From: a virus
Taxonomy: Duplodnaviria > Heunggongvirae > Uroviricota > Caudoviricetes
DNA length: 34,951 nt
IMG/VR virus record: IMGVR_UViG_2740892423_000023
Span: 1-34,951 of that record
Strand: one strand, 5' to 3'
Under the pieces are notes generated by a model. That model worked only from the letters and a program-made list of their open reading frames with translations, was not told the DNA's origin and did not search any database. Shown piece after piece: positions 19,298-34,951 of the stretch (its first letter is position 1; the number at the start of each line of letters is the position of its first letter). Position numbers and translations under genes: made by a program.

Positions 19298-20949
19298 CCT
19301 CCTGAACCAAAACGCCCGTCACGGTCACGCCCGGTGCTGCGTGGGGTGTGAATCTGAAATTTTGCGCTGCGCGATACCGCCAGCGTCCACAGCATGTGCA
19401 GACAGTCCGGGCCATCATCGTGGTCGGCTTTGGGGTAGTGGCGCAGCTGGTCAATCAGCGTCTGATGTGTGTGACTGATACGAATCAGGCCGTTGGCCAT
19501 ATGCGGCTGAAGGGATTCGATACGCAGTGCCTTATCCTCCAGCGGGATGACCGGCAGCGCCGGAACCGGCACGCCCAGCGCCGCCGAACGCTCAACCAGC
19601 ACGGTACGCAGAAACTCCTGAAACTGGACGGACTCAAACGACCAGCACAGACAGTGATATTCCCGCTGATACTTAATCACGTCTTCGATAAGTTTGTTTG
19701 GCAGACGTCGGCGGATATCGGCTTCAACCACATCCAGAATGCCGGTAAAGCGGTTAAAGCCCCCCACGAGAATGGCCGACGGGTCGCGGTTTTTGTTTTT
19801 CTTCCCGAGGCTGGGGTCAACAGCGCCGTAGAATACCCATTCATCAAGACGGTTAACCCAGAATTTAATGCAGCCCGCAAACAGCGCGTCTTCACCGCTG
19901 ACCGGGTCGTTCTGGTATTCAGAATCAAAGGTGTCATGACCGTCACGGACACGGATTTTCATCAGCGCCAGCAGGGGACGCGCCGCCCATGACACCACTG
20001 ACCCGGCGAGCATGTCGGCTTCGTTCTGCCGGTAAAGTGCCTCCGCCGCTTCCGGCTGTTTATTGCGGATGAGTTCTTCCCACTCGTCCCACAGCTTCAT
20101 GTTGGCAGGCCACTGAATAACAGCCTTAAAGCGGGCCGTTTTCCACATCGGGTTATTGAGTGTGCGCGACAGCACGGAGTCGTAATGCAGGATGGTTCCG
20201 ATATAAATAATATCGGTTTTACCGCCAGCCTCGCCCAGCGGCATCACAGTTTTGGTGAGCCAGTCATGCAGCTTGTCGCGCTGCTCCGGGTTACGCACCA
20301 TCTCGTCGTTCTCGATGTCGTCGAGGATGACCAGGTCAGGACGGTACGGACCGTGGCGCAGACCACGCAGTTTTTTACCACTACCGGCAACGGTCACCTT
20401 GATATTGTTGGCCGTGACGATGGTCCCCATACGCCAGACGCGCCCCTGTCCGCACACCTCCGGGAAATCGTTTTTTAAACGGGGGTTAAATTCCAGTTCA
20501 GCCTTGATGGCTTCCAGCATCGGATAAGCCTGGTCGATACTGTCCATAATGATGACCGGGTAATGCTTAATGGCCCGGATAATGGTCCACAGGGTAAACA
20601 GCTGAGTCACCAGCGTGGATTTTGCTTCACCACGGGGCGCGGCGATGGCGTCGTTCTCCGGGGCCGGGCTTGCCACAACCTGTGGCAGACGGCTGAACAG
20701 GTATTTATGCAGCTCGCTTTTTGCCGGGTTGCGGACGTAATGCGGGAAATAGTTTTCGACAAAATAATCGTAGCCCGTCACCGGGTCGCAGACTGCCGCC
20801 CGGCGGGCCTGTGTGGCCTGCGGGTTAACATCGAACCCCAGACATTCAGCCTCGATGGTCTGGCGGAGGTTGGCGATGTATTCCTGTAAGCTTCTCTGAA
20901 ACTCTTTAATGGAAAGTTTACGTTTTGCCACGTCACACCTGGTATACAA
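19291..20949 (-). CDS. Terminase large subunit
   Basis: 552-aa ORF; deviant Walker A (AAPRGEAKST), Walker B-like LVILDDIENDE; start is TTG 20949 or GTG 20931 (AGGTG RBS). Confidence 0.8.
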   Translation of the reverse strand: MYTRCDVAKRKLSIKEFQRSLQEYIANLRQTIEAECLGFDVNPQATQARRAAVCDPVTGYDYFVENYFPHYVRNPAKSELHKYLFSRLPQVVASPAPENDAIAAPRGEAKSTLVTQLFTLWTIIRAIKHYPVIIMDSIDQAYPMLEAIKAELEFNPRLKNDFPEVCGQGRVWRMGTIVTANNIKVTVAGSGKKLRGLRHGPYRPDLVILDDIENDEMVRNPEQRDKLHDWLTKTVMPLGEAGGKTDIIYIGTILHYDSVLSRTLNNPMWKTARFKAVIQWPANMKLWDEWEELIRNKQPEAAEALYRQNEADMLAGSVVSWAARPLLALMKIRVRDGHDTFDSEYQNDPVSGEDALFAGCIKFWVNRLDEWVFYGAVDPSLGKKNKNRDPSAILVGGFNRFTGILDVVEADIRRRLPNKLIEDVIKYQREYHCLCWSFESVQFQEFLRTVLVERSAALGVPVPALPVIPLEDKALRIESLQPHMANGLIRISHTHQTLIDQLRHYPKADHDDGPDCLHMLWTLAVSRSAKFQIHTPRSTGRDRDGRFGSGGW

Positions 20950-20958
20950 ATATCAGAC

Positions 20959-20976
20959 GGCCCGGAAAACCGGGCC
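20959..20976 (-). other. Perfect stem-loop between terminase small and large subunit genes
   Basis: GGCCCGG-AAAA-CCGGGCC, 7-bp GC stem, 6 nt after terS stop. Confidence 0.5.
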
Positions 20977-20983
20977 GCTGTGG

Positions 20984-23448: not shown

Positions 23449-23916
23449 TTAATCAAAAAGCCCCACCTGGGTGGGGCTTTTCAGCGAAGTCTGTTTTTGT
23501 CGTCGGTGTATCAGTTGCCATGCGTACCGGTCTGAAATGCCGTAACGGGGACAGAGCAGTGCCAGCGCCTGCCGGTGTGAGCATCCGCCTTTTACATGCT
23601 GCTGTAAATCAGCCATAAAACGGGTGTTACGCAAGGCACGTAACGCATGATCGCAACGGGGAATGTAAAACGGTGCGCCGCCAAGAAAACGGATCAGTTT
23701 GTTGATTTCGTCTTCGGTCAGCACGTCATGTAACAGGGCATGGACACCGCCGGTTCGTTCGGCGTGTGCGCCGGTTTTACCGCTTAACGTCACGCCACCA
23801 AAAGAACGGATTAACCGGGTCAGGGCGGGGAAGCCAATCACGCTAATCAGTTGCTGCACGGAATCAGGCAACAGTGCCTGCGCATCGCGAAGATCTGTTT
23901 CACTGAAGGTCTGCAT
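23449..23916 (-). CDS. Mor/C-family transcriptional activator (only copy in window)
   Basis: 155-aa ORF with GGAGA RBS; C-terminal region ...FYIPRCDHALRALRN...RYGISDRYAWQLIHRR resembles the Mor/C DNA-binding region. Confidence 0.75.
   Translation of the reverse strand: MQTFSETDLRDAQALLPDSVQQLISVIGFPALTRLIRSFGGVTLSGKTGAHAERTGGVHALLHDVLTEDEINKLIRFLGGAPFYIPRCDHALRALRNTRFMADLQQHVKGGCSHRQALALLCPRYGISDRYAWQLIHRRQKQTSLKSPTQVGLFD
23455..23482 (-). terminator. Intrinsic terminator, bidirectional-type, overlapping last codons of the Mor/C gene
   Basis: AAAAAGCCCCACC-TG-GGTGGGGCTTTT; minus-strand hairpin followed by UUUUUGAUUAA; Mor stop at 23449. Confidence 0.7.
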
Positions 23917-24011: not shown

Positions 24012-24434
24012 TTATTGTTTATGTGCTGCTCTGGCTCGTTTTCTGGCGTCTTTTGTCAGCGCCACCATCACCCCGAAAAGCTGTTCATCCGTCAGCCATT
24101 CGATCACATGTTGCTTATACATGTGAGATGCCAGTCCTTCTGCATACGCCCAGGAACGACCGGCATCAGCCAGCAACGCTTCAATTTTGGATAATACCGA
24201 TTTTCTGCTCATTGCAACACGGGGGCGGCGACCTTTACCGACGGGCGCTTTGCGCGGGAATCCCTGTTCGTGCATATATTCCCGGATGATGCGCAGTTCA
24301 TCGAGGTTGCAGCGTGTGGTGCTGGTTTTACCGGTCAGGCGGGCCAGCGTCTGGCGATAAAGGGCATCATCCCACCCCAGATACGCCTGACCGGCTTTAA
24401 TGGCTCCGATCATCTTTTTCAGCATGTTTGTTAT
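24012..24434 (-). CDS. gemA: GemA-like regulatory protein (DUF1018-like)
   Basis: ORF 24012-24551; start refined to ATG 24434 (MLKKMIGAIKAGQAYLGWDDALYRQTLARLTGK), characteristic N-terminal pattern; position before Mor. Confidence 0.65.
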   Translation of the reverse strand: MTNMLKKMIGAIKAGQAYLGWDDALYRQTLARLTGKTSTTRCNLDELRIIREYMHEQGFPRKAPVGKGRRPRVAMSRKSVLSKIEALLADAGRSWAYAEGLASHMYKQHVIEWLTDEQLFGVMVALTKDARKRARAAHKQ

Positions 24435-24925: not shown

Positions 24926-25095
24926 CGTTTTGCTCTCCTGCGTTTCTTTGCTGCTCGTCTCGCCGCCGCAATGCCTGTACGGCGTTTCGGTGCCGGGATG
25001 ATGCTGTCAGCCATCAGGACATGCGGCTTTGCAATTAGCGCAGAAGCCCAAAATCGAGTCGGATACGGTAACAAGCCGATACATGCCACACGCAT
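24922..25095 (-). CDS. Small basic ORF (about 57 aa), hypothetical
   Basis: Hand translation MRVACIGLLPYPTRFW...RRAAKKRRRAKR; GGAGGTGA SD formed by last codons of upstream gene; TAATG start overlap. Confidence 0.25.
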   Translation of the reverse strand: MRVACIGLLPYPTRFWASALIAKPHVLMADSIIPAPKRRTGIAAARRAAKKRRRAKR

Positions 25096-25484
25096 TACTC
25101 ACCTCCCTTACCCTGAAGCATGGCGGCGCAGCAGGCGTTCCATGAAATTTCCTGAAGGGAACGACGAATCTGTGTGCTGCATATACTCCTCCCTGACTCC
25201 TGGCTGTTAAACCATGTTTCAAATTCCGGCACCACCGTCGCTGGCGGGGCAGCGTAGAGTGGAATGCCTCTCCCTCCATAAGAAAATTCGTTGCGAGCGT
25301 TATACTCACGACCATCTGCGTCATCACGCATCCATGCCACCGGCTCTGCTTCCAGCGATGCCAGCGCGATACGAAACACATTGGCAAGCAGGCTGTTTGA
25401 AGATTGGTTATCGTGCGCCGGGTCGCTCAGGAAACCAGTGATGAATGATTTAATCTCCGCTTTTTCTCTGGTTATAGTGGTCAT
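25095..25484 (-). CDS. Hypothetical protein (129 aa)
   Basis: ORF 25095-25565; start refined to ATG 25484 (MTTITREKAEIKS) with AGGAG RBS, just after upstream stop. Confidence 0.5.
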   Translation of the reverse strand: MTTITREKAEIKSFITGFLSDPAHDNQSSNSLLANVFRIALASLEAEPVAWMRDDADGREYNARNEFSYGGRGIPLYAAPPATVVPEFETWFNSQESGRSICSTQIRRSLQEISWNACCAAMLQGKGGE

Positions 25485-25485
25485 A

Positions 25486-26076
25486 TCACTCTCCTTTGAT
25501 GCGAATGCCTGCGGCACGTAGCACATTAACTTCCACGATGCGCACAGTTGGTTTGTACATCTCAATTGCTGTCAGCCAGTCAGCGCCAGTCATGCGCTTT
25601 TCTGCATCGCCATTAGTCCACTTAACCGGTACACCAATAGCCTTCATCGCGATTTCTATTTCCCCGGCAATGGCGCTTTTTCCGCAACCAGTAAAACCAG
25701 ATACAACGACAAGAACTTCGCCTTTGGCTGGTTTTATTTCCCGTGCTTCCAGTTCTGCTATGCGCTTCTCTGCGGCTTCCAGCTTCTTGTAAAGAGCATC
25801 CCAACTTGTCGAGTTATCCATAACCAGCTTTGTAACCCGCTCTTCGCGTGATTTGTAATACTCCAGTTCATCCAGCAGTGCCAGCACGGTAGCCGGATTG
25901 GCTGCTGCTATGAATCGCTTATTGGCGCGATTATCTGGTCCTGAGCATGATGCTATGTAGTAATTTGCGTTCAGTCCGGCATCAGCAATTACCCCATAGT
26001 AATCATCAGAACACCATTCGCCTGGTGTTGCATTTTCTGCCGCCATTCGCAGTGCCTGATAGTTAACTTCACTCAC
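25486..26076 (-). CDS. Ead/Ea22-like protein
   Basis: 196-aa ORF, GTG start with AGGAGG RBS; N-terminal ...ALRMAAENATPGEW... typical of Ea22-like proteins of lambdoid phages. Confidence 0.6.
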   Translation of the reverse strand: MSEVNYQALRMAAENATPGEWCSDDYYGVIADAGLNANYYIASCSGPDNRANKRFIAAANPATVLALLDELEYYKSREERVTKLVMDNSTSWDALYKKLEAAEKRIAELEAREIKPAKGEVLVVVSGFTGCGKSAIAGEIEIAMKAIGVPVKWTNGDAEKRMTGADWLTAIEMYKPTVRIVEVNVLRAAGIRIKGE

Positions 26077-26329
26077 TGGTTGCCTCCTTTTTCCATGTTT
26101 TCAGACTTTCACCACAGAACGGGCAAAATGAGACTCGAATAGGTGATTTAGAAAACTCACCAGAACGCAACATCACCAAATCAGGTCCACGGGTTAAACT
26201 CTCATTCCAGATTTTGTATAGCAGTAAGCCTTTTCTTACTGAGCATTCAGCATCGTGCTCAAGAGACTTTGCCAATGCAGCACACGGCTCTATTCGATTG
26301 CCATTAATTCGACACTTTAATTCACTCAC
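26069..26329 (-). CDS. Small Cys-containing protein (87 aa), possible zinc-binding
   Basis: ORF 26069-26392; GTG 26329 with GGGAGGAG RBS, GTGA overlap with upstream ORF; paired Cys (C-x13-C ... CPFC). Confidence 0.4.
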   Translation of the reverse strand: MSELKCRINGNRIEPCAALAKSLEHDAECSVRKGLLLYKIWNESLTRGPDLVMLRSGEFSKSPIRVSFCPFCGESLKTWKKEATSE

Positions 26330-26490
26330 TTCAACTCCTCCCGACGACGTTCCTGAAGTTCCAGCATTGCGGCCCGGAAATCCTGCCACCATTCCTCATC
26401 GGCAACGGGGCTGTTTCGCTCCAGCACCTTGTCCGCATCGGCAATCAGTCTGGTCAGGCTCTTATCGCTTATTCTGGTTTGCTGGTTCAC
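26326..26490 (-). CDS. Small hypothetical protein (54 aa)
   Basis: Hand translation from GTG 26490 with AGGAGG RBS: VNQQTRISDKSLTRLIADADKVLERNSPVADEEWWQDFRAAMLELQERRREELK. Confidence 0.4.
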   Translation of the reverse strand: MNQQTRISDKSLTRLIADADKVLERNSPVADEEWWQDFRAAMLELQERRREELK

Positions 26491-26777
26491 TGCGCCGCCT
26501 CCTGTTCATTTTTTTCACTCCGGTATACCAAAATCACGACATCACCTACGGGGATAACGCGGGTTGGTTCTCCCGGCTCTATGCTGTCGATATCGAAGGC
26601 CTCAAAAAACGCATTCATTGCCTTCTGCTGCTGCGTCTGTTTACGGTGCTTATTCCATGTTTTCAGGAATACAAGGGACAGCCACATCCCGGCGCGGAGC
26701 ATGATGTAACACCAACCGAGAAGAGCGATGCCTGCATTCATGGCTATATCTATCGTTATCGTTTTATCAATGACCAT
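26487..26777 (-). CDS. Small membrane protein (96 aa, hydrophobic N-terminal half)
   Basis: AGGAGG RBS; hydrophobic ITIDIAMNAGIALLGWCYIMLRAGMWLSLVFL. Confidence 0.5.
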   Translation of the reverse strand: MVIDKTITIDIAMNAGIALLGWCYIMLRAGMWLSLVFLKTWNKHRKQTQQQKAMNAFFEAFDIDSIEPGEPTRVIPVGDVVILVYRSEKNEQEAAQ

Positions 26778-26997: not shown

Positions 26998-27221
26998 TTG
27001 CAGTTAAACCTCCTTTTGTGACGTTCTACAGCGGCTTTCATGGCGTTGTGTACGGTTCTTTTAATAATCCGGTGTCCCGCACTGTCATAGAACCGCCACC
27101 GGGAAGCCCCCGGATATTTAGGGAACTCAACCGCCGCGCTACCGTCATTCATCCTGTATTCGTGGCGTTCTCCGGGAGGCTGGTATATTGCTTCGGTAAC
27201 ACTGAGAAGTTTAAAAGCCAT
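26994..27221 (-). CDS. Hypothetical protein (75 aa)
   Basis: GGAGGGGG RBS 5 nt before ATG 27221, immediately after DUF2786-like gene stop. Confidence 0.45.
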   Translation of the reverse strand: MAFKLLSVTEAIYQPPGERHEYRMNDGSAAVEFPKYPGASRWRFYDSAGHRIIKRTVHNAMKAAVERHKRRFNCK

Positions 27222-27223
27222 CG

Positions 27224-27934
27224 TTACCCCCTCCCCAGTGCCAGCGGTCTGTTGCTCTGACCATTAACCCCCTGATGCAGCCTGGCGTTTTTCCCGGCGA
27301 TAAAACCGGCAGTAGCGGCAAACTCTGCACCCCGACACGCTTTAGCTGTGCGCATATCCCCGTCGCGCAGTCCTTTAGTGCTGTGCAGGTTCTTTCTGTA
27401 AAGCTCAAGGCGACTTTTTTCTTCCGGGGAGACGTCATACACCGCAATGACATCACGGGCACCAAAGACCCAGCCTTCGCAGAACTGGTCGCCACGGGCT
27501 ACCCGCGTGGACGGGCCGCAACGTTTGCAGTGTTTATCCTGATATTTCTTGCGCTCTGCCATCATCTGACGGGAAAGCACATCAAACGCGTAAGCCGCGA
27601 TTTCCGGGCGGCTGTCAGAGCCATAAAAACGCACGTGACGTTTGAGTGAACCAGAAGCCCGGTACTCACCGGATATGTAACACTCGACACCGAAGGCTTT
27701 ACAGACCAGGTCACACAGGATGTGCATATAACGCGGCGGCGTACTGGCATCACTCGGCGCACCCGCGCTGGCAGCTTCCTGAATGTCGAACAATTCAGCG
27801 TCGTTTTCGCTGATGCCATGCTGGCGCATATAAACCTGGGCTTTTGCAATAGCGTTAGCGGCTTCTTCCGGGCTTGATGTCCCTCTGGCAAGGCGTAACA
27901 GTTTTTTGATTTTGGCAATGTATTTATCTTTCAT
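27224..27934 (-). CDS. DUF2786-like protein (236 aa)
   Basis: N-terminus MKDKYIAKIKKLLRLARGTSSPEEAANAIAKAQVYMRQHGI matches the pattern I recall for DUF2786. Confidence 0.55.
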   Translation of the reverse strand: MKDKYIAKIKKLLRLARGTSSPEEAANAIAKAQVYMRQHGISENDAELFDIQEAASAGAPSDASTPPRYMHILCDLVCKAFGVECYISGEYRASGSLKRHVRFYGSDSRPEIAAYAFDVLSRQMMAERKKYQDKHCKRCGPSTRVARGDQFCEGWVFGARDVIAVYDVSPEEKSRLELYRKNLHSTKGLRDGDMRTAKACRGAEFAATAGFIAGKNARLHQGVNGQSNRPLALGRG

Positions 27935-27947
27935 GGTCGTCTGAACC

Positions 27948-28130
27948 TCAGCATCCTGAATTCTGAATTACGCGACTTCCGGCACGGCCTTCAGGAGCGT
28001 GGGGAGCTCGTTCTGGCTGCGGCGCTGAATGAACATCTGCTGTTGATTGAGAACTGGTCGCAAGACGATTAAAACAAACGATTGTCAGATTAATTTCGCG
28101 GGCGAATTTTTTTTGCTTAGCGATATTCAT
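27948..28130 (-). CDS. Small ORF (60 aa), doubtful
   Basis: GAGGAAG RBS 9 nt before ATG 28130, directly after repeat copy A; product low-complexity. Confidence 0.25.
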   Translation of the reverse strand: MNIAKQKKFAREINLTIVCFNRLATSSQSTADVHSAPQPERAPHAPEGRAGSRVIQNSGC

Positions 28131-28146
28131 AAATAAACTTCCTCAG

Positions 28147-28205
28147 ATTCAGGCGTAAGCCAGCCCCGGCGGGTTTACGCCATATACAAATAAAATTAAA
28201 AACAG
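28147..28205 (-). repeat. Repeat copy A: 35-bp GC-rich palindromic core plus A/T-rich tail
   Basis: attcaggcgtaagccagccccggcgggtttacgcc at 28147-28181, identical to 28772-28806; outer arms GGCGTAA/TTACGCC. Confidence 0.8.
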
Positions 28206-28210
28206 ACTTA

Positions 28211-28762
28211 TTAACTACGACATTCAGCTTTCCGGTAATGACGGTCAACAGACTTTACGAACGCCTTCACATCACGGGAAATCGAATCCAGCGGATAATA
28301 TTCATTCAGCAGTTCCATTCCACTGAATCGAATCTGAAAAAAATCAGGCTTATCTTTATATGACTCCATCAGGTCAATAAACCGCAACTGACGCGGGAGG
28401 GATTCCTGCACGCCTGAAATAGTGAGCAAATCACCTTCAAGAATGTCCCGGAGGTCTTCCATACCCTCCCTACATGACTGCATGGATATTCTTGTCAGTA
28501 TGTTGCGTGTCGCGAGGTACAGTGCCACCGTGTCATTTGCCATCATGGCGAACAAATCCCCCTGAATATAAGCCCCCTTACTGGCCATAGCATTCCCGGC
28601 AATCTGGGCATTAAGTACCACATCCATAAAACTACCGGGTCCTCCCAGACGTCCCAGCAATGATGACGCCCATAACGTTACATTGGTTAACTTCTCAGAT
28701 GAACGGGTAGCAAAACCTTCAGGAGTAACAATAAAATCCCAGACTTTATCTTTCATATACAA
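28211..28762 (-). CDS. Hypothetical protein (183 aa), repeat-flanked cargo gene
   Basis: AAGGGGA RBS; no family recognised; lower GC than flanks; bracketed by repeat copies A and B. Confidence 0.6.
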   Translation of the reverse strand: MYMKDKVWDFIVTPEGFATRSSEKLTNVTLWASSLLGRLGGPGSFMDVVLNAQIAGNAMASKGAYIQGDLFAMMANDTVALYLATRNILTRISMQSCREGMEDLRDILEGDLLTISGVQESLPRQLRFIDLMESYKDKPDFFQIRFSGMELLNEYYPLDSISRDVKAFVKSVDRHYRKAECRS

Positions 28763-28771
28763 ATCCCCTTA

Positions 28772-28831
28772 ATTCAGGCGTAAGCCAGCCCCGGCGGGTT
28801 TACGCCTGTTTTAAATAACAATTAAAAACAA
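28772..28831 (-). repeat. Repeat copy B: 35-bp GC-rich palindromic core plus A/T-rich tail
   Basis: Identical 35-bp core at 28772-28806 followed by tgttttaaataacaattaaaaacaa, similar to the copy A tail. Confidence 0.8.
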
Positions 28832-28837
28832 ATTAAA

Positions 28838-29029
28838 TTAATGCGGTGCTTTCAGTGTTTCGACTTTTACGAAATAAGGCTCGACATTAATTTCAACCAC
28901 ACAACCACATTTAAAATCTCTGGCCGGTGAAACGGTTTTCACCACACGACCACCACGCAACGCCGGATGTGCAGTGTGCATGAAGCGAGTCCCTACCGGA
29001 TACTGCTTATTAAAGTTCTTCGCATTCAT
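28838..29029 (-). CDS. Hypothetical protein (63 aa)
   Basis: GGAGG RBS 7 nt before ATG 29029. Confidence 0.45.
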   Translation of the reverse strand: MNAKNFNKQYPVGTRFMHTAHPALRGGRVVKTVSPARDFKCGCVVEINVEPYFVKVETLKAPH

Positions 29030-29243
29030 GGCGTGGCCTCCAGCCCTTCAGGTGAGCGTTAGCGCAGAACTCCGCACGATGTTCAGCCCAGATACGACGC
29101 AGGGTACTACATGGGCTTTGTGCTGCCTTACGCCACAGCTTTTCAGCCCCGGCATAATCGCCGCGTTGTTCTGCTCTGGATGCACCCAGCGAATACGCTG
29201 CGCAACTATTTCCGGCTCTGTACTCTTTGATATCCTGATGCAT
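29010..29243 (-). CDS. Hypothetical protein (about 77 aa)
   Basis: ORF 29010-29354; start refined to ATG 29243 (MHQDIKEYRAGN), 2 nt after upstream stop. Confidence 0.45.
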   Translation of the reverse strand: MHQDIKEYRAGNSCAAYSLGASRAEQRGDYAGAEKLWRKAAQSPCSTLRRIWAEHRAEFCANAHLKGWRPRHECEEL

Positions 29244-29244
29244 G

Positions 29245-29889
29245 TTAAACCCCTGCAATATCAAGCGGGATTGCGCGGTATTCATCAGAATCACCGACGC
29301 GCTCATACACGCGGATATAGCTTTTGCTGCCAACCACCTGGACGGCTTCACCAATCAGCGTCATGGCGTTATCCCAGCGCTCCTCCGTAATATCGAGACG
29401 ACGCAGAGCCAGAACGCGCCCGGTGTTAATATTGCCTTCCTTGTCCGTGCTGAATGCCTCACTGATGATGGCTTTAATTTCAGGGCGCGCTCCTTCCGTC
29501 CAGTCAGCCAGGCAATCATCAATCAGCGATTTCGCGGTCTGGATGCGCTCATCAAACGCGATACGGTCCTGCATAGCGCGCTGAATCTTGTAGCGTCCGT
29601 CAAAGCTGTAAAGCGTGATATTGCCTTTTTTACCGCCTTTCACAGCGCCGTATTTCTCCGCCGACAGGTCAATAAATGCCTGAATATCACCAAACGCGCG
29701 CAGTTTCAGTTCACGCAGCGAGGCGGAGGCAGCAATCACCATCTCCACAAGCTCACCGACCAGCTGCTCGCGGTCGCGGTCAATATCTTTGATAAGGCTT
29801 TCAGGTGTCATTACGCCACGGGCATCCACCCAGTAACCTTCAGGCGCTTGAGTTTTCGTGTATTGCTTAACTTTATTTTCAGTCGTCAT
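29245..29889 (-). CDS. Conserved Mu-like early protein (214 aa; possibly DUF3164-like)
   Basis: MTTENKVKQYTKTQAPEGYWVDARGVMTPESL...; family name from memory only. Confidence 0.5.
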   Translation of the reverse strand: MTTENKVKQYTKTQAPEGYWVDARGVMTPESLIKDIDRDREQLVGELVEMVIAASASLRELKLRAFGDIQAFIDLSAEKYGAVKGGKKGNITLYSFDGRYKIQRAMQDRIAFDERIQTAKSLIDDCLADWTEGARPEIKAIISEAFSTDKEGNINTGRVLALRRLDITEERWDNAMTLIGEAVQVVGSKSYIRVYERVGDSDEYRAIPLDIAGV

Positions 29890-29918
29890 AATTAAATTAC
29901 CTCAGTGATATTTACAGA

Positions 29919-30134
29919 TTAATGTGTGTTATGCGCGCAGGGTTCCACGCCAACAGAAAATAAATCAACGCCGTTAAATTCTTTATTAAGAGTTTGATTC
30001 ATTGCCTCCCATAACCGTTGTCTTACTCCGACCTCTTCATCCGTAAATCCTTTTTTATCAACAGCCCCCATGCTTCTGACACGAAGCGTACCGTTTTCAT
30101 CGGTATAGATAATTACTTCTAACTTAACCGCCAT
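29919..30134 (-). CDS. Hypothetical protein (71 aa)
   Basis: ORF 29919-30155; likely start ATG 30134 (MAVKLEVIIYTDENG) with AAGGTGGA RBS. Confidence 0.45.
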   Translation of the reverse strand: MAVKLEVIIYTDENGTLRVRSMGAVDKKGFTDEEVGVRQRLWEAMNQTLNKEFNGVDLFSVGVEPCAHNTH

Positions 30135-30315
30135 GTTTTCCACCTTTGAAATCAAACGATTTAAAAATAATTTCGTTCATAAAACAGTGAGTTTTTATGA
30201 TAATGTCGGAAACCTGCTCTCCCGTGACATCAGGCGGCAACTGATACGTCGCGACGGCTTTCTCCGGTTTACCAGGCCTGTCCAGGCTGAAAGTTAACTC
30301 AAGCTCTAATGACAT
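30124..30315 (-). CDS. Hypothetical protein (63 aa)
   Basis: GAGGAA RBS 6 nt before ATG 30315. Confidence 0.45.
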   Translation of the reverse strand: MSLELELTFSLDRPGKPEKAVATYQLPPDVTGEQVSDIIIKTHCFMNEIIFKSFDFKGGKHGG

Positions 30316-30330
30316 TTTCAGTTCCTCGTT

Positions 30331-30597
30331 TTACTGCCATACGACGGTGCAGCCGTCGATACAGGATGTTTTCACCACGCGGCGCAGGCCGCTGAATGTC
30401 TGGACGATTTCCGTTACCGGCCATACAGGACCACCCACAGGTGGGCAGGCATAAACCACAGGTAAACGGTGATGTTGCCCCGTTACACGACCGCCGGTGG
30501 TGTGGATGGCCACACGGGCACGGGAACGGACGGCATTAATGGTCTGCTTTTCCATCGTCTTGTTCTCCATCAGTGAATTAACATTTCTGCGCTGCAT
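30331..30597 (-). CDS. Hypothetical protein (88 aa)
   Basis: ORF 30331-30648; ATG 30597 overlaps upstream stop (TAATG). Confidence 0.4.
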   Translation of the reverse strand: MQRRNVNSLMENKTMEKQTINAVRSRARVAIHTTGGRVTGQHHRLPVVYACPPVGGPVWPVTEIVQTFSGLRRVVKTSCIDGCTVVWQ

Positions 30598-30947
30598 TAT
30601 CTGAGTGCAAACGCAAGTCGTGGCTGATAACGGGGAAGACGGGCACACATACGCGCAAGACGATAAGCCCGACGAAACCCCTGTAAAGTCTGCTCAAAAG
30701 GAATAATCATTAATCGCGCACAGCATTCATCAACATCCCAGTCGTCGCTGGTATTTCCGGTTCCATTGATTTCCCGTTCACGGGAATACAAATCAATGCG
30801 CAGTTCACCCGGCACGAAGCAATCAACAAACGGAATAATTTCACCAGGGGTTCCATTAGAATAAATACAACCATTACGACCAATACTCTGTAGTGCCCTT
30901 ATTTCATTTCTGAGAGCCATTTTTTCCATGCGCAAAACTCCAGTCAC
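30597..30947 (-). CDS. Hypothetical early protein (116 aa; start GTG 30947 or ATG 30929)
   Basis: First gene after MuB (kil-region position); GTGA overlap with MuB stop. Confidence 0.45.
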   Translation of the reverse strand: MTGVLRMEKMALRNEIRALQSIGRNGCIYSNGTPGEIIPFVDCFVPGELRIDLYSREREINGTGNTSDDWDVDECCARLMIIPFEQTLQGFRRAYRLARMCARLPRYQPRLAFALR

Positions 30948-31837
30948 TTAATTAACATTTCGGAGAATTTCTCAATAGCTTTTACGCTCACTGGCACTTT
31001 GGTGACATCACTCATCCGGTACACGCCACGCACCAGTTTGAACAGGCGACGGGCGTTACCACGCGAATATGTATAAAGCGCCTCGCCGATTTCTGGCGTT
31101 TCCGCTTCCGGCATCAATTCTGTGGCTATTGGCGTAAAATCCTCTGGCGACAACGTATTCCCCATATCAAGCGCCACACCCACACGACTGTATAACTGAG
31201 CGAACTCCCCGCGATTACCCTTAAGATTAGTCACAAGGCGCGGCATACCCGCCAGAACAATCCCGATACCCGCCTTGTCATGCAGACGGCGCAGAACCTC
31301 CAGTGCACGGTAGGGGAGTAGCTCGGCTTCATCCACCATCAGCAGACGACCGGAATCACGCAGTTCGCGCACACAGACATCAATCAGTTCGTGAATACTG
31401 CCGCGAACCTTTACCCCCAGCTGGCGACACAGCTCCCCGAGTAGCGCCCTGGCTGTATAGCCGGTGTCAGCCTCAATCAGTATCGCATCCCGGTTTCTGG
31501 CGGCGTATTCACTCAGAATCATTGTTTTTCCAAGACCAGCCTCGCCATGCAGCACGCAGATTTCACAATACGCATGAGCATAAGAGAGCATCTCCAGCCC
31601 TTTATCTGCCATTTCCGTGGCGACAAATTTCGCTTTAACACGACGATTACTTTGCTTCTCCAGCTCACGACTGACAAAGGAAGATATACGCTCTTCAACG
31701 TCAGTAACGTCACCTACATATTTACCCTGTAAGTACTGGTTGATAACGGCGCTACTACGACCAATTGCACGACCAACGTGGGTCTGCGTATAGCCGCAAC
31801 GGGCCATTACGTCATTTAATTGCGTAATTAAACTCAT
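30944..31837 (-). CDS. Transposition ATPase, MuB-like (AAA+)
   Basis: 297-aa ORF; Walker A GEAGLGKT, Walker B LLMVDEAE; directly downstream of transposase. Confidence 0.9.
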   Translation of the reverse strand: MSLITQLNDVMARCGYTQTHVGRAIGRSSAVINQYLQGKYVGDVTDVEERISSFVSRELEKQSNRRVKAKFVATEMADKGLEMLSYAHAYCEICVLHGEAGLGKTMILSEYAARNRDAILIEADTGYTARALLGELCRQLGVKVRGSIHELIDVCVRELRDSGRLLMVDEAELLPYRALEVLRRLHDKAGIGIVLAGMPRLVTNLKGNRGEFAQLYSRVGVALDMGNTLSPEDFTPIATELMPEAETPEIGEALYTYSRGNARRLFKLVRGVYRMSDVTKVPVSVKAIEKFSEMLIK

Positions 31838-31854
31838 ATTAAATACCTTTTAAA

Positions 31855-33930
31855 TTAACGGTTGTTTGTGCCGTCTTTCTTTAAATTGCGGTCACGCTCG
31901 GATGCAAAGAAATAAAGTTCTTCTTTTTTCTTTTCCTCCTTACGCTCCAGACCAAATCCAAAATTAAAGTCAGGTTTCTGCGTAATAGCCGGGGTAAGCT
32001 CGCGTTTAGCCTCTTCGATTTTCTGCGTGGCCCGTGCAATGCGGCCTCTGACGCGTTTCTCCAGTTTTTGTTCGATAACTGGTTTAGCGAAGGCATCAAC
32101 CTTGTTACCGTTCCAGATGGCATCGCAGATATAAGAGCCATCAGCCCGCCGGACAATGACACTGTTTGCGTCATGAATATCGTAACTGACCCTGACTTCA
32201 TTCCCGTGCTCTGCGGCCAGCTCATACGAGTAATAAATATTGTTGAATAACTGAATTTCCCCGCGAAATGTTTTGCGCGTCACCTCCGGCCTGAACATTT
32301 CATGCAGCTCTTCCGGCGACAGGAAATCAATTTCAACATTCTGCTCTTTTATCAGTTTCCGGCGATACGCTGCCGGGCTGTAATATTCGCCATCCTCTTT
32401 GCGGGGAAGGCTGCTGTGTGGCCGGTTGTTATAGCGTCTGACCTCCAGCTCTATGGCGGCCATCAGTTGCTCAAAGGTGGGGATTTCATCCCTCGCCTTA
32501 ACCTGCCGTTTTGTCAGCTCTTTCCCTTTGTGGGTGGCCTTAATGGCTGACTGCATAATCCGTTGCTGCATCATTACGGTTTCCTTGTCTGCATCCCTTG
32601 CGCAGTACGTCTGGAAACTCAGAGCCACGTCTTTAGGTATTCCTTTGTTTGCCCGTTCAATCACCCCGCGCCCCTGCGGGTTACCTGGTATCCCCGTGTG
32701 ATGTTCTACACCCAGCCGGGGCAGAATCCCGGTAATATCGGCATCAAGCACCCGGTTTTTTTCACCGCCCCCGTTATCGGAGTAATAAATCAGCGGTATC
32801 CCGTGCTGCGCCATGCCGTAACGTAACGCATCAGCAACGGCTATCACGTTCTCCGACAGGGACAGTGACCAGCCCACAACAAAGCGTTGCCCAGCATCCA
32901 TAACCAGCGTCACTTCTGGCCGGAAAATATTGCCGGTCAGGGGGTTAAACGCGGTCATTTTCATACAGTGACCATCCCCGACCCATACCGCATTAACCGG
33001 TAATGATGTCCAGTCGCGCCGCACAAAGGGATTGAGCGAACGCCAGGCTGAACCGGTGGAGCGGAAACGCTCTTTAACAATCACCGGGACGCTGCTTAAC
33101 ACCCGTCTTACTGCGTGAACTGAAGGCAGTGCCGCCAGCATTCCCGCATCATTCGCGTGTTTTTCATGCCACCAGGCTGAAAACTCACGATACGCATATT
33201 CAACAGTCGGGCGCTTCCATGAGCGATAGAACATAAAGAAATCGCTCAACCACCAGACCTGCTCCCACGGTGTTCCCTTATGATGACCGGGAGCCAGTAA
33301 CGCCAGTAACTGATTGGCATCACCGCGCGCCATCAGCCAGGCGGAATACCATTCCTGTAAACTCCCTGTACTGACGCCAGTTCGCTTACCCTGTCGGGCA
33401 TTGGCGGTATTACCTGCCACAATAACGCGCTCGGGCAAAGCCTCCTGGCGGATACCATCAACGATGTGTTTTATCGCTGCCGTCCTGGACATTCCTGCGT
33501 ATTCACGCAGTTTATGCACTTCGGTAGCCAGCAATATCCGCGCATCAGCGATGGCCTTTTGCTTGTCGGTCAGTGCCTGAACTTCGCGTAATGCCAGTTC
33601 CGGGCATTTGACCATCACCTCCAGCTCATCGCGGACGGTGACGTTTTTAGCTGCCTTCTGCTCAACCACTGCGGGCAGTTGCGCATCTTCCAGGACCTGA
33701 TGGGTCAGGCGTTGACGTAAAACCTTCTGAACATCTTTAGGTAAACTGGATATATGGTACTCATATATTTTCCCCTGAACTCCAGACTTCCTTCTTCTTG
33801 TCCAGTTCGCTCGTTTAGCTTTTTGAGTGATCCCCTGTACAGTTTTCGGTAGCCCTTGAAGCCCTGTTAGTTCATTCAACGTAAACCATTCAGGTTCGAA
33901 CTTGACTTCATAGTCGTTGTTCTTATTCAT
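31855..33930 (-). CDS. DDE transposase, MuA-like
   Basis: 691-aa ORF; N-terminal winged-helix region (LTGLQGLPKTVQGITQKAKRANW) related to the repressor N-terminus; overlaps ner stop. Confidence 0.9.
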   Translation of the reverse strand: MNKNNDYEVKFEPEWFTLNELTGLQGLPKTVQGITQKAKRANWTRRRKSGVQGKIYEYHISSLPKDVQKVLRQRLTHQVLEDAQLPAVVEQKAAKNVTVRDELEVMVKCPELALREVQALTDKQKAIADARILLATEVHKLREYAGMSRTAAIKHIVDGIRQEALPERVIVAGNTANARQGKRTGVSTGSLQEWYSAWLMARGDANQLLALLAPGHHKGTPWEQVWWLSDFFMFYRSWKRPTVEYAYREFSAWWHEKHANDAGMLAALPSVHAVRRVLSSVPVIVKERFRSTGSAWRSLNPFVRRDWTSLPVNAVWVGDGHCMKMTAFNPLTGNIFRPEVTLVMDAGQRFVVGWSLSLSENVIAVADALRYGMAQHGIPLIYYSDNGGGEKNRVLDADITGILPRLGVEHHTGIPGNPQGRGVIERANKGIPKDVALSFQTYCARDADKETVMMQQRIMQSAIKATHKGKELTKRQVKARDEIPTFEQLMAAIELEVRRYNNRPHSSLPRKEDGEYYSPAAYRRKLIKEQNVEIDFLSPEELHEMFRPEVTRKTFRGEIQLFNNIYYSYELAAEHGNEVRVSYDIHDANSVIVRRADGSYICDAIWNGNKVDAFAKPVIEQKLEKRVRGRIARATQKIEEAKRELTPAITQKPDFNFGFGLERKEEKKKEELYFFASERDRNLKKDGTNNR

Positions 33931-34126
33931 AACGTGATGGCCAAATTTCTTCTGGCTTTTTACCGATCACACTAGCGACAATCATTTCTGCTTTGGGCCA
34001 TTTTGTACGTAGAACATTACCCAAACTTCTTGATTTCATTCCATGCTCTCGTGAAAGCCGACTAAAGTTTGTTCCTTTCTTTTCTAGTTCCGCCTTGATA
34101 TCTGACGGATGCATATCTTGTCTCAC
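33923..34126 (-). CDS. ner: Ner-like DNA-binding protein
   Basis: 67 aa; ...NVLRTKWPKAEMIVASVIGKKPEEIWPSRY matches the Ner/Nlp signature; GTG start with GAGGT RBS. Confidence 0.8.
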   Translation of the reverse strand: MRQDMHPSDIKAELEKKGTNFSRLSREHGMKSRSLGNVLRTKWPKAEMIVASVIGKKPEEIWPSRYE

Positions 34127-34372
34127 GTCTCTACCTCTTCACATAAATCAACAGATATGAGATCTTGAGTGATTACTCGCATGTGTACGCGATTGAGTTA
34201 CTCACCTGCGTGAAGAATACTAGATTTAAACAATGTTTAAGTCAACATGTTTAAATCTGTGTTTAAAACATTTTGGCGACCGTGTGACTTATCGTTTTGT
34301 TTTTGAGGTAATTTTTGTGTTTTAAACAAAAGCTCTATTTCATGCTCTTTTGTTTAAATCTAAGGGGGTAGA
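34127..34372. promoter_or_regulatory. Divergent immunity control region (operators and promoters for repressor and ner-A-B)
   Basis: AT-rich 246-bp gap with repeated TGTTTAA units and near-palindromes GAGTGATTACTC (34167-34178) and GAGTTACTC (34194-34202). Confidence 0.6.
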
Positions 34373-34951
34373 ATGAAACAAGAATGGGTTGCCGCAAAAG
34401 ACCTGGTAGGGCTTCATGGTTTACCTGCCACAATTCAGGGAATTCACCAAAAAGCCAAAAGGGGCGGATGGCGCAAAGAGAAAAGAATTACACCTGGTGT
34501 GAAGGGACATCAGGTATACTTCTACTTACCTGATTTGCCTGAAAAAATACGCTGCTCCTTGGTGTCGAAAGACGGAGAAACTCCAGTGAGGAATGATTTA
34601 AACAAAGGGTTGATATCAATACTGGAAATGACATCCGCAGAAGATCAATTCAATCTTTTTCGCGCTTTGTGTGAATTTGGCATCAAAGGAGTCCTAGAAC
34701 ACCTACAACAACCCACCAGGCAAGCTACGCAGGCCGACAGCGACCAGGACGAACAGGAGAATGCCATCAGAAGCCTAAACATCAGGGAATCGCTTAAAGA
34801 CGTTATATGTATGGCTCTAGATGGTAATGAAGAAACCGACAAAGAGATTTTGCGACGCATCGAATCTCGTGCACGGGCTGGGTCGCCAGGTGGTCAGACC
34901 GTTGCCACGCCGGAGCAAGAAACGAAGCCTGTAAGCAAAAAATCAGCATGA
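34373..34951 (+). CDS. Mu c-like repressor
   Basis: 192-aa ORF with AAGGGGG RBS; N-terminus LVGLHGLPATIQGIHQKAKRGGW parallels the transposase N-terminal DNA-binding domain; divergent from ner. Confidence 0.75.
   Translation: MKQEWVAAKDLVGLHGLPATIQGIHQKAKRGGWRKEKRITPGVKGHQVYFYLPDLPEKIRCSLVSKDGETPVRNDLNKGLISILEMTSAEDQFNLFRALCEFGIKGVLEHLQQPTRQATQADSDQDEQENAIRSLNIRESLKDVICMALDGNEETDKEILRRIESRARAGSPGGQTVATPEQETKPVSKKSA

What the first reader, a model, noticed from the sequence alone, without database searches (positions are those of the whole stretch)
29010..30947. Long chain of overlapping start/stop codons in the post-B early region
Consecutive genes are linked by GTGA, TAATG, a 10-nt ATG...TAA overlap and a 2-nt gap, and several ORF-track starts need refinement to internal codons. 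This implies tight translational coupling across at least six small genes, so their stoichiometry is linked and automated callers are likely to mis-call them.
Basis: seen in the sequence. Interest (0 to 1): 0.2.

Follow-up and report, generated by a model that had tools for sequence, protein, structure and literature searches.

The report
Closely packed Mu-like prophage early genes
This is the ordinary, tightly packed block of small early genes that follows the transposition genes of a Mu-like prophage; only three of its seven gene junctions really touch or overlap, and the "long chain" comes mostly from reading each ORF from its longest possible start.

Summary
The window is a Mu/BcepMu-like transposable prophage with its genes on the minus strand. 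Region 29010-30947 holds the first six small genes after the B ATPase: g1, Kil, g3, g4, DUF3164 and ANR.

Two of them, GTGA at 30947-30944 and TAATG at 30599-30595, depend on start codons with no Shine-Dalgarno sequence. In relatives those codons are missing, mutated, or cut off from the gene by in-frame stops.

Starts supported by homologues give these spacings: B>g1 +14, g1>Kil +41, Kil>g3 +15, g3>g4 -11, g4>DUF3164 +29, DUF3164>ANR +1, ANR>g7 -20. Every supported start has its own SD (-5.9 to -9.3 kcal/mol).

Only 2 of the 7 junctions overlap, against 16 of 36 elsewhere in the same prophage. Phage Mu's early region is packed the same way. g1 and g3, and g8 just downstream, are optional cassettes in close relatives, which argues against fixed stoichiometry. 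PGAP and database gene calls already use the supported starts.

Coupling is plausible at DUF3164>ANR, whose +1 spacing is conserved in 59 of 74 loci. It is possible but weak at the two overlaps.

Verdict: ordinary and already known; partly an ORF-track artefact.

The parts
30944..31837 (-). B-type AAA+ transposition ATPase (297 aa), the gene upstream of the chain
   Evidence: Pfam AAA_22 3.4e-21, TniB, N-terminal HTH. PGAP calls it an AAA family ATPase in homologues.
30944..30947 (-). GTGA string: TGA stop of B plus an in-frame GTG of the g1 ORF. Not the functional start.
   Evidence: The string is present. GTG 30947 has no SD (dG +0.1). It is absent in L087 and L091, where stops lie 3 codons before the ATG. 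Database homologues are all 109-110 aa.
30597..30929 (-). g1, a 110-aa protein of unknown family. An optional cassette between B and Kil, 14 nt after the B stop.
   Evidence: The ATG at 30929 has a GGAG SD (dG -5.9). The start is conserved. No Pfam, PHROG or NCBIfam hit. Absent from most relatives, where B is followed directly by Kil.
30595..30599 (-). TAATG string: TAA stop of g1 plus an ATG in the Kil frame. Not the conserved Kil start.
   Evidence: No SD (dG +0.4). The ATG is ATA in L092. In-frame stops lie between it and the conserved start in L115, L117, L118 and L022. The PHROG Kil profile begins 9 residues downstream.
30565..30587 (-). Duplicate of the 3' end of B (GAAATGTTAATTCACTGA plus TGGAG SD) upstream of Kil; a footprint of the g1 insertion
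   Evidence: the repeat finder family D10. In loci without g1, B ends ...GAAATGTTAATTCACTGATGGAGAACAAGACGATGGAC.
30331..30555 (-). Kil homologue, 74 aa, 41 nt after the g1 stop
   Evidence: phrog_2679 'Kil protein for bacterial septation inhibition', 2.8e-37. 34% identity to the C-terminal 44 residues of Mu Kil, also 74 aa. The ATG column is present in all 20 distinct homologues, offset by one column in L139. GGAG SD dG -6.4. Database clusters are 74-75 aa.
30124..30315 (-). g3, 63 aa, unknown function. An optional cassette, 15 nt after the Kil stop.
   Evidence: phrog_38867, full length, 5.3e-48. GAGGA SD dG -6.1. Absent where Kil is followed directly by g4 with a 12-nt gap.
30124..30134 (-). 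11-nt overlap ATGGCGGTTAA between the g4 start and the g3 stop
   Evidence: The -11 spacing is found in 8 of 8 loci that carry both genes.
29919..30134 (-). g4, 71 aa, unknown function
   Evidence: phrog_7438, full length, 3.1e-21. The ATG is universal. In half of the homologues a stop lies 4 codons upstream, which rules out TTG 30155. SD AAGGTGG dG -7.2.
29245..29889 (-). DUF3164 protein, 214 aa, 29 nt after the g4 stop
   Evidence: PF11363 2.8e-80. phrog_846. 66-69% identity to BcepMu gp05 and phiE255 gp36.
29241..29247 (-). TAA-C-ATG: 1-nt spacer (29244) between the DUF3164 stop and the ANR start. The only junction in the optimal range for coupling.
   Evidence: The +1 spacing is found in 21 of 22 loci with ANR, and in 59 of 74 loci whichever gene follows DUF3164.
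29010..29243 (-). ANR-family small regulator, 77 aa
   Evidence: NCBIfam NF033650, 56.1 bits against a cut-off of 32. phrog_2227. The ATG is universal, with stops just upstream in 8 homologues. PGAP names it an ANR family transcriptional regulator.
29010..29029 (-). 20-nt overlap between the g7 start and the ANR stop
   Evidence: The -20 spacing is found in 24 of 25 loci.
28838..29029 (-). g7, 63 aa, unknown function. A conserved follower of DUF3164 and ANR.
   Evidence: phrog_5591, full length, 3.5e-40. Strongest SD of the set, GGAGG dG -9.3. Present in 105 of 162 loci and in all 45 loci that have ANR.
28211..28756 (-). g8, 181 aa. An optional cassette outside the finding's coordinates, flanked by two copies of a hairpin.
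   Evidence: phrog_7741. Exact 30-nt repeats at 28777-28806 and 28152-28181. A single copy where g8 is absent.

Best explanation
Region 29010-30947 is the start of the accessory ("semi-essential") part of the early operon of a Mu/BcepMu-like transposable prophage. It is most likely read as one polycistronic mRNA from the early promoter, through ner, A and B, into a string of small genes: g1, Kil, g3, g4, DUF3164, ANR and g7. Each gene starts at an ATG with its own Shine-Dalgarno sequence. Spacings after the preceding stop are +14, +41, +15, -11, +29, +1 and -20 nt.

Translation of most of these genes is therefore expected to initiate independently. Termination-reinitiation coupling is plausible at DUF3164>ANR (+1), where the last DUF3164 codons carry the SD of the next gene. 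It would be at most weak at the -11 and -20 overlaps.

The apparent long chain of overlaps comes from extending each ORF to its first possible NTG. The close spacing is the normal economy of phage operons, here shaped by cassette exchange at conserved stop-plus-SD linkers.

Shown: gene identities, conserved start positions, the spacings and their conservation, and the SD strengths.
Inferred: a single transcript, and the degree of coupling at each junction.
For: Identity of the element:
- Mu transposase, AAA_22 B ATPase, Ner-like HTH_35, Mu-type repressor, GemA and Mor.
- Kil (phrog_2679).
- DUF3164 is 66-69% identical to the BcepMu and phiE255 proteins.
- A whole-prophage PGAP annotation of a 94% identical E. 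coli relative.

Starts:
- Stop-to-stop alignments over 160 related loci show one universal ATG column per gene. In-frame stops or non-start codons occupy the longer alternatives.
- Projected spacings are conserved: -11 in 8 of 8 loci, +1 in 21 of 22, -20 in 24 of 25, +29 in 16 of 17.
- SD duplex energy is -5.9 to -9.3 kcal/mol at supported starts. It is about 0 at GTG 30947, ATG 30597, GTG 30648 and TTG 30155, and -3.1 at TTG 29354.
- Database gene calls agree: 110 aa for g1 and 74-75 aa for Kil.

Ordinariness:
- 18 of 43 junctions overlap across the window, but only 2 of 7 in this region.
- 18 of 49 junctions overlap in the PGAP-annotated relative.
- The early region of Mu shows the same spacing style, with B>kil +18 and kil>gp6 +2.

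Single transcript:
- Promoter-like and terminator-like sites do not exceed shuffled expectation in 27000-34951.

Distance dependence of coupling:
- Review PMC12548453.
Against: There are no expression data for this element. One transcript is inferred only from the lack of predicted signals, and the scan used is crude.

The -20 and -11 overlaps are strictly conserved. That could mean they matter for expression, and are not merely tolerated.

Absence of an SD does not by itself exclude reinitiation at GTG 30947 or ATG 30597 in this particular strain.
Confidence: 0.85

Rival explanations
1. The six genes are tightly translationally coupled through start/stop overlaps (GTGA, TAATG, the ATG...TAA overlap and a minimal gap), so that one ribosome flux sets their relative amounts.
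For: The four strings are in the sequence. The genes are co-directional, with no predicted internal promoters above chance. The +1, -11 and -20 junctions are conserved.
Against: - The GTGA and TAATG starts lack an SD and are not conserved. They are replaced by stops or ATA in relatives.
- Real spacings at four junctions are +14 to +41 nt, each with its own SD.
- g1, g3 and g8 are optional between close relatives, which does not fit fixed stoichiometry.
- Overlaps of -20 to -25 nt couple poorly in the experiments reviewed in PMC12548453.
Confidence: 0.06
2. In this strain the overlap-type codons are used in addition to the conserved starts. Reinitiation at GTG 30947 (after B) and ATG 30597 (after g1) would give N-terminally extended isoforms of g1 (116 aa) and Kil (88 aa).
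For: Both codons are in frame and open to the conserved start in the window and in L089. Spacings of -4 and -1 are the most efficient for reinitiation, which can occur without an SD (PMC12548453).
Against: The extensions are not conserved. L087, L091 and L092 and all g1-less loci lack them. The Kil extension is read from a remnant of the 3' end of B, in a frame different from B's own. No database protein other than one contig-end fragment carries either extension.
Confidence: 0.08
3. The conserved overlaps and the +1 junction have no role in expression. They are neutral by-products of how cassettes were recombined into conserved linkers, and persist because changing them would alter two proteins at once.
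For: There are footprints of cassette insertion: the 3' end of B is duplicated upstream of Kil, and a hairpin is duplicated around g8. Three alternative arrangements occur after the Kil stop-plus-GAGGAA linker. The genes downstream of both overlaps have strong SDs of their own (-7.2 and -9.3).
Against: The +1 spacing after DUF3164 is kept in 59 of 74 loci whichever gene follows, at down to 36% identity of the downstream protein. That is more than dual-coding constraint would explain for a 1-nt spacer.
Confidence: 0.3

Closest known systems
Semi-essential early region of Escherichia phage Mu (B, kil, gp6-gp9, gam ... gemA, mor; NC_000929)
   Same: The order repressor / ner / A / B / kil / small accessory genes / gemA / mor is the same. 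Kil is 74 aa in both and aligns to its last residue. The packing style is the same: spacings of +18, +2, +11, +14, 0 and +19 with occasional overlaps of -1, -14 and -4.
   Different: Apart from Kil, GemA and Mor the accessory genes differ. DUF3164 stands where Mu has Gam. ANR, g1, g3, g4, g7 and g8 have no Mu counterpart. There is no nucleotide similarity to any isolated phage.
Burkholderia phage BcepMu / phiE255 (Bcepmuvirus) early region
   Same: The DUF3164 protein is 66-69% identical. It sits between the transposition genes and GemA/Mor in a co-directional block of small genes.
   Different: BcepMu has a Tn552/rve-type transposase and different neighbours (pyrophosphatase, HU, SSB). It has no Kil or ANR, and DUF3164 there is followed by a 63-nt gap, not the +1 junction.
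Classical translationally coupled gene pairs (trp operon pairs, f1 gene VII; termination-reinitiation pairs of Huber et al., as reviewed in PMC12548453)
   Same: DUF3164>ANR has a spacing (+1) within the most efficient range, and the SD lies inside the upstream coding sequence.
   Different: The downstream genes here have good SDs of their own and accessible starts. Most junctions are +14 to +41 nt. No dependence on upstream translation has been measured.

Membership tests
Translationally coupled gene chain (termination-reinitiation) | Co-directional neighbours on one transcript | tested here: inconclusive
   All genes are on the minus strand. Promoter-like and terminator-like sites do not exceed shuffled expectation. 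No transcript data are available.
Translationally coupled gene chain (termination-reinitiation) | Stop-start spacing within about -4 to +3 nt at each junction | tested here: not met
   With homologue-supported starts the spacings are +14, +41, +15, -11, +29, +1 and -20. Only DUF3164>ANR qualifies. The range is taken from PMC12548453.
Translationally coupled gene chain (termination-reinitiation) | Downstream start is weak or occluded on its own (no SD, or buried in structure) | tested here: not met
   All supported starts have SD duplex dG of -5.9 to -9.3 kcal/mol. Mean unpaired probability over -14 to +6 is 0.35-0.63.
Translationally coupled gene chain (termination-reinitiation) | Expression of the downstream gene depends on translation of the upstream gene | not testable with these tools
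   Needs premature-stop reporter constructs or ribosome profiling.
Mu-like transposable phage early operon | Mu-type DDE transposase A followed by an AAA+ B ATPase | tested here: met
   The 691-aa ORF at 31855-33930 is 91% identical to a protein PGAP calls 'Mu transposase C-terminal domain-containing protein'. B matches AAA_22 and TniB.
Mu-like transposable phage early operon | Divergent repressor plus a Ner-like regulator upstream of A; GemA and Mor downstream | tested here: met
   HTH_Tnp_Mu_1 repressor at 34373-34951 (+ strand), HTH_35 Ner-like gene at 33923-34126, GemA at 24012-24425 and Mor at 23449-23916.
Kil (phrog_2679, Mu gp5) | Sequence match to the family, and position directly after B | tested here: met
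   phrog_2679 at 2.8e-37. BLASTP against Mu Kil gives 2e-5, and both proteins are 74 aa. Kil lies directly after B in loci without g1.
Kil (phrog_2679, Mu gp5) | Blocks host cell division when expressed | not testable with these tools
ANR (AraC negative regulator) family, NF033650 | Score above the curated NCBIfam cut-off | tested here: met
   56.1 bits against a cut-off of 32, covering residues 15-64.
ANR (AraC negative regulator) family, NF033650 | Binds AraC/XylS activators or H-NS | not testable with these tools
   Known for Aar and its homologues (PMC4983702, PMC5570504). Not tested for this protein.
DUF3164 (PF11363) | Score above the Pfam gathering threshold | tested here: met
   269 bits against a cut-off of 23.7, covering the full-length profile.

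The most novel reading that the evidence does not exclude
DUF3164, ANR and g7 may form one conserved, translationally linked expression module in the early operon of enterobacterial Mu-like prophages.
- The stop of DUF3164 is followed after exactly 1 nt by the next start in 59 of 74 loci, whichever gene follows, and the SD is encoded in its last codons.
- ANR, when present, is always inserted between DUF3164 and g7 (45 of 45 loci).
- The ANR>g7 overlap of -20 nt is fixed (24 of 25 loci).

If so, part of the ANR family studied as anti-virulence regulators would be phage early proteins made in step with DUF3164. Given the H-NS-modulating activity reported for ANR proteins, they might act on H-NS or AraC-type host factors during transposable-phage development.
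Probability: 0.15. Interest if true: 0.4.

Novelty: already known. Interest (0 to 1): 0.1.

Why it matters
It matters little for biology in general. Short gaps and overlaps between co-directional genes are the rule in phage operons, and about a third of prokaryotic genes overlap a neighbour (PMC12548453).

The practical value is for annotation. The correct starts of six small early genes in this prophage family are now backed by comparative evidence. The analysis also shows that NTGA or TAATG strings found by a longest-ORF rule are not evidence of coupling.

The side observations could be useful to people studying phage mosaicism or ANR regulators. These are cassette exchange at conserved stop-plus-SD linkers, and an ANR regulator sitting in a Mu-like early operon.

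Tried and rejected
- Megablast of 28700-31300 against isolated phages found nothing. tblastn of the Kil ORF against phages also found nothing. The Kil assignment rests on the PHROG profile and a pairwise comparison with Mu Kil.
- Rfam at gathering thresholds and a tRNA scan of the whole window found nothing.
- My first stop-to-stop extraction was wrong for some loci, because tblastn alignments ran through stop codons. I redid it anchored at the middle of each alignment, and only the corrected result is used.
- AlphaFold2 on g1 with a 6-sequence alignment gave mean pLDDT 56.9. That is too low for a meaningful fold search, so none was run.
- I considered that the Gp37/DUF1834 gene at 11949-12587 was a pseudogene, because no ATG, GTG or TTG start aligned. 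I rejected this. The DNA matches the intact E. coli homologue except for scattered substitutions and one in-frame 15-nt gap, and PGAP uses a CTG start there.
- I considered orf60 (27948-28130) as a missed gene. It is intact in 13 variants, but non-synonymous changes equal or exceed synonymous ones, so its status is left open.
- I considered internal promoters or terminators splitting the region. Predicted sites do not exceed shuffled expectation.
Full report
**What the window is**

The 34,951-nt window is almost entirely one Mu-like transposable prophage, with its genes on the minus strand.
- At the right end lie a Mu-type repressor on the plus strand (34373-34951, HTH_Tnp_Mu_1) and a Ner-like gene (33923-34126, HTH_35).
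- Next come a 691-aa Mu-type transposase (31855-33930) and an AAA+ B ATPase (30944-31837, AAA_22/TniB).
- GemA, Mor, lysis, head and tail genes follow.
- No isolated phage matches at the DNA level. However, 58 of 5,426 complete E. coli genomes carry the region at 90-96% identity.
- One relative, inserted between carB and caiF, has a full PGAP annotation.
- The closest isolated phages by the DUF3164 protein are the Burkholderia phages BcepMu and phiE255, at 66-69% identity.

**The genes in the finding**

Region 29010-30947 holds the first six ORFs after B.
- I used PHROG, Pfam and NCBIfam profiles.
- I also used 160 related loci fetched through the DUF3164 protein.

| Gene | Coordinates | Size | Identity |
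|---|---|---|---|
| g1 | 30929-30597 | 110 aa | no family |
| Kil | 30555-30331 | 74 aa | phrog_2679 |
| g3 | 30315-30124 | 63 aa | phrog_38867 |
| g4 | 30134-29919 | 71 aa | phrog_7438 |
| DUF3164 | 29889-29245 | 214 aa | PF11363 |
| ANR | 29243-29010 | 77 aa | NF033650 |
| g7 (just outside) | 29029-28838 | 63 aa | phrog_5591 |
| g8 (outside) | 28756-28211 | 181 aa | phrog_7741 |

The window Kil is 34% identical to the C-terminal 44 residues of Mu Kil, which is also 74 aa.

**Checking the observation**

|---|---|---|
| GTGA | TGA stop of B plus in-frame GTG | 30947-30944 |
| TAATG | TAA stop of g1 plus ATG in the Kil frame | 30599-30595 |
| 10-nt overlap | ATGGCGGTTAA, 11 nt | 30134-30124 |
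| 2-nt gap | TAA-C-ATG, 1 nt | 29247-29241 |
| not listed | 20-nt ANR/g7 overlap | 29029-29010 |

**Which starts are real**

For each gene I extracted the stop-to-stop ORF from every related locus, aligned the translations, and marked every ATG, GTG and TTG (one search had a bug and is superseded).
- One ATG column is universal for every gene.
- **g1:** L087 and L091 have a stop three codons before that ATG and no GTGA.
- **Kil:** the ATG of the TAATG is ATA in L092. It is absent in all loci without g1. In L115, L117, L118 and L022 in-frame stops lie between it and the conserved ATG.
- **g4:** half of the homologues have a stop four codons upstream, which rules out TTG 30155.
- **ANR:** eight homologues have stops just upstream of the ATG, which rules out TTG 29354.
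- SD-antiSD duplex energies agree. They are -5.9 to -9.3 kcal/mol at the conserved starts. They are about 0 at GTG 30947, ATG 30597, GTG 30648 and TTG 30155, and -3.1 at TTG 29354.
- Predicted accessibility of the start regions is unremarkable (0.35-0.63).
- PGAP uses the same starts in three E. coli relatives.
- Database clusters give 109-110 aa for g1 and 74-75 aa for Kil.
- The prediction that callers would mis-call these genes is therefore not borne out.

**Real junction geometry**

These are the spacings with supported starts.

| Junction | Spacing (nt) | Conservation in relatives |
|---|---|---|
| B > g1 | +14 | - |
| g1 > Kil | +41 | - |
| Kil > g3 | +15 | - |
| g3 > g4 | -11 | 8 of 8 loci |
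| g4 > DUF3164 | +29 | 16 of 17 |
| DUF3164 > ANR | +1 | 21 of 22 |
| ANR > g7 | -20 | 24 of 25 |
| g7 > g8 | +81 | - |

- The +1 spacing after DUF3164 holds in 59 of 74 loci whatever gene follows.
- According to the review PMC12548453, coupling is most efficient between -4 and +3 nt. It persists at 3- to 10-fold lower efficiency out to about +40. It falls off faster with growing overlap and was undetectable at -25.
- Only DUF3164>ANR is therefore in the efficient range.

**Is it more than background?**

- Across the window, 18 of 43 same-strand junctions overlap when supported starts are used.
- In the region of the finding, 2 of 7 overlap, against 16 of 36 elsewhere.
- With longest-ORF starts, the region's count rises to 5 of 7.
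- In the PGAP-annotated relative, 18 of 49 junctions overlap: 5 of 17 early and 13 of 32 late.
- Phage Mu's early region has the same spacing style.
- An NTGA string accompanies 8 of the 14 TGA stops in the window, so the string alone says little.
- The chain is thus mostly a product of the longest-ORF rule, and the region is not unusually compact.

**Modularity argues against fixed stoichiometry**

- **g1 is an insertion.** In most relatives B ends ...GAAATGTTAATTCACTGA and is followed after 14 nt by Kil. The window keeps a copy of that B 3' end plus the TGGAG SD upstream of Kil.
- **g3 is optional.** Kil is followed by g4 directly (+12), by g3 then g4, or by an extra 81-aa gene then g3 then g4. 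Each arrangement comes after the same stop-plus-GAGGAA linker.
- **g8 is flanked by two exact 30-nt hairpin copies.** The hairpin is single where g8 is absent.
- **ANR is optional between DUF3164 and g7.** ANR occurs in 45 loci, always with g7. g7 occurs without ANR in 60 loci.

**Most likely mechanism**

- The region is probably one early transcript. A promoter-like site lies at 34245-34217, and predicted internal signals do not exceed chance.
- Most genes would initiate independently at their own SD.
- Reinitiation coupling is plausible at DUF3164>ANR.
- At most weak coupling is expected at the two overlaps, whose downstream genes carry strong SDs of their own.
- The transcript structure and the degree of coupling are inferences. 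The gene models, spacings and their conservation are shown.

**Verdict**

- The feature is an ordinary, already known property of phage operons.

Noticed in passing
window 30565-30587 and 30938-30961 (minus strand): About 18-23 nt of the 3' end of B plus the following GGAG SD is duplicated upstream of Kil. In relatives without g1, B is followed directly by Kil with this same sequence. g1 therefore looks like a cassette inserted at the B/Kil junction.
   Followed up: yes
window 28777-28806 and 28152-28181 (minus strand); D1 repeat 28147-28202 / 28772-28827: Two exact copies of a 30-nt GC-rich hairpin (GGCGTAAACCCGCCGGGGCTGGCTTACGCC) flank the optional gene g8. Loci without g8 have one copy. The hairpin folds much better on the plus strand, antisense to the operon (-26 kcal/mol, z -5.8, followed by UUUUAAAU at the 28772-28812 copy), than in the mRNA sense (-19.8, z -1.65). 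Its role is unexplained.
   Followed up: partly
window 27948-28130 (minus strand): A 60-aa ORF with a GAGGAA SD, ending 13 nt before the DUF2786 gene. It lies in a 276-nt stretch that PGAP leaves unannotated in a relative. The ORF is intact in 13 sequence variants, but non-synonymous changes equal or exceed synonymous ones, so its coding status is unclear.
   Followed up: partly
window 11949-12587 (minus strand): The Mu Gp37/DUF1834 gene appears to start at a CTG that overlaps the upstream stop (CTGA, -4). The Pfam profile begins at residue 2 of that version. The ORF-track ATG at 12530 would remove 19 domain residues. PGAP makes the same CTG call in the E. coli relative.
   Followed up: partly
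window 29010-29243, and related loci L083-L141: An ANR-family (AraC negative regulator) protein is encoded in the early operon of this Mu-like prophage family. It is always between DUF3164 and g7 (45 of 45 loci). One ANR paper I searched for these terms (PMC4983702) groups Salmonella, Citrobacter and Xenorhabdus members together and does not mention a prophage location.
   Followed up: partly
window 29241-29255, and 74 related loci: The last codons of DUF3164 (GGAGTC or GGGGTT before the stop) carry the SD of the next gene. That gene starts exactly 1 nt after the stop in 59 of 74 loci, whether it is ANR or g7.
   Followed up: yes
window 30597-30929: g1 (110 aa) has no Pfam, PHROG or NCBIfam match. 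Database homologues named by source are from E. coli and Salmonella, and 36%-identical copies occur in three viral contigs. The AlphaFold2 model was poor (pLDDT 56.9).
   Followed up: partly
window 20932-20983, compared with L163 22458-23198: The E. coli 54214 relative carries a DNA methyltransferase gene between terL and the DUF1804 gene. The window has only a 52-nt spacer there.
   Followed up: no
window 34217-34245 (minus strand), 34318-34342 and 34594-34618: A promoter-like site (TTGACT-17-TAGTAT) lies upstream of the Ner-like gene and is a candidate early promoter. A 25-nt direct repeat (76% identity) lies in the repressor/ner intergenic region and could be operators.
   Followed up: no
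window 24926-26766: About 1.8 kb of early-region genes has little or no counterpart in the annotated E. coli 54214 prophage. It includes an Ead/Ea22-like protein at 25486-26076 and is another mosaic segment.
   Followed up: no
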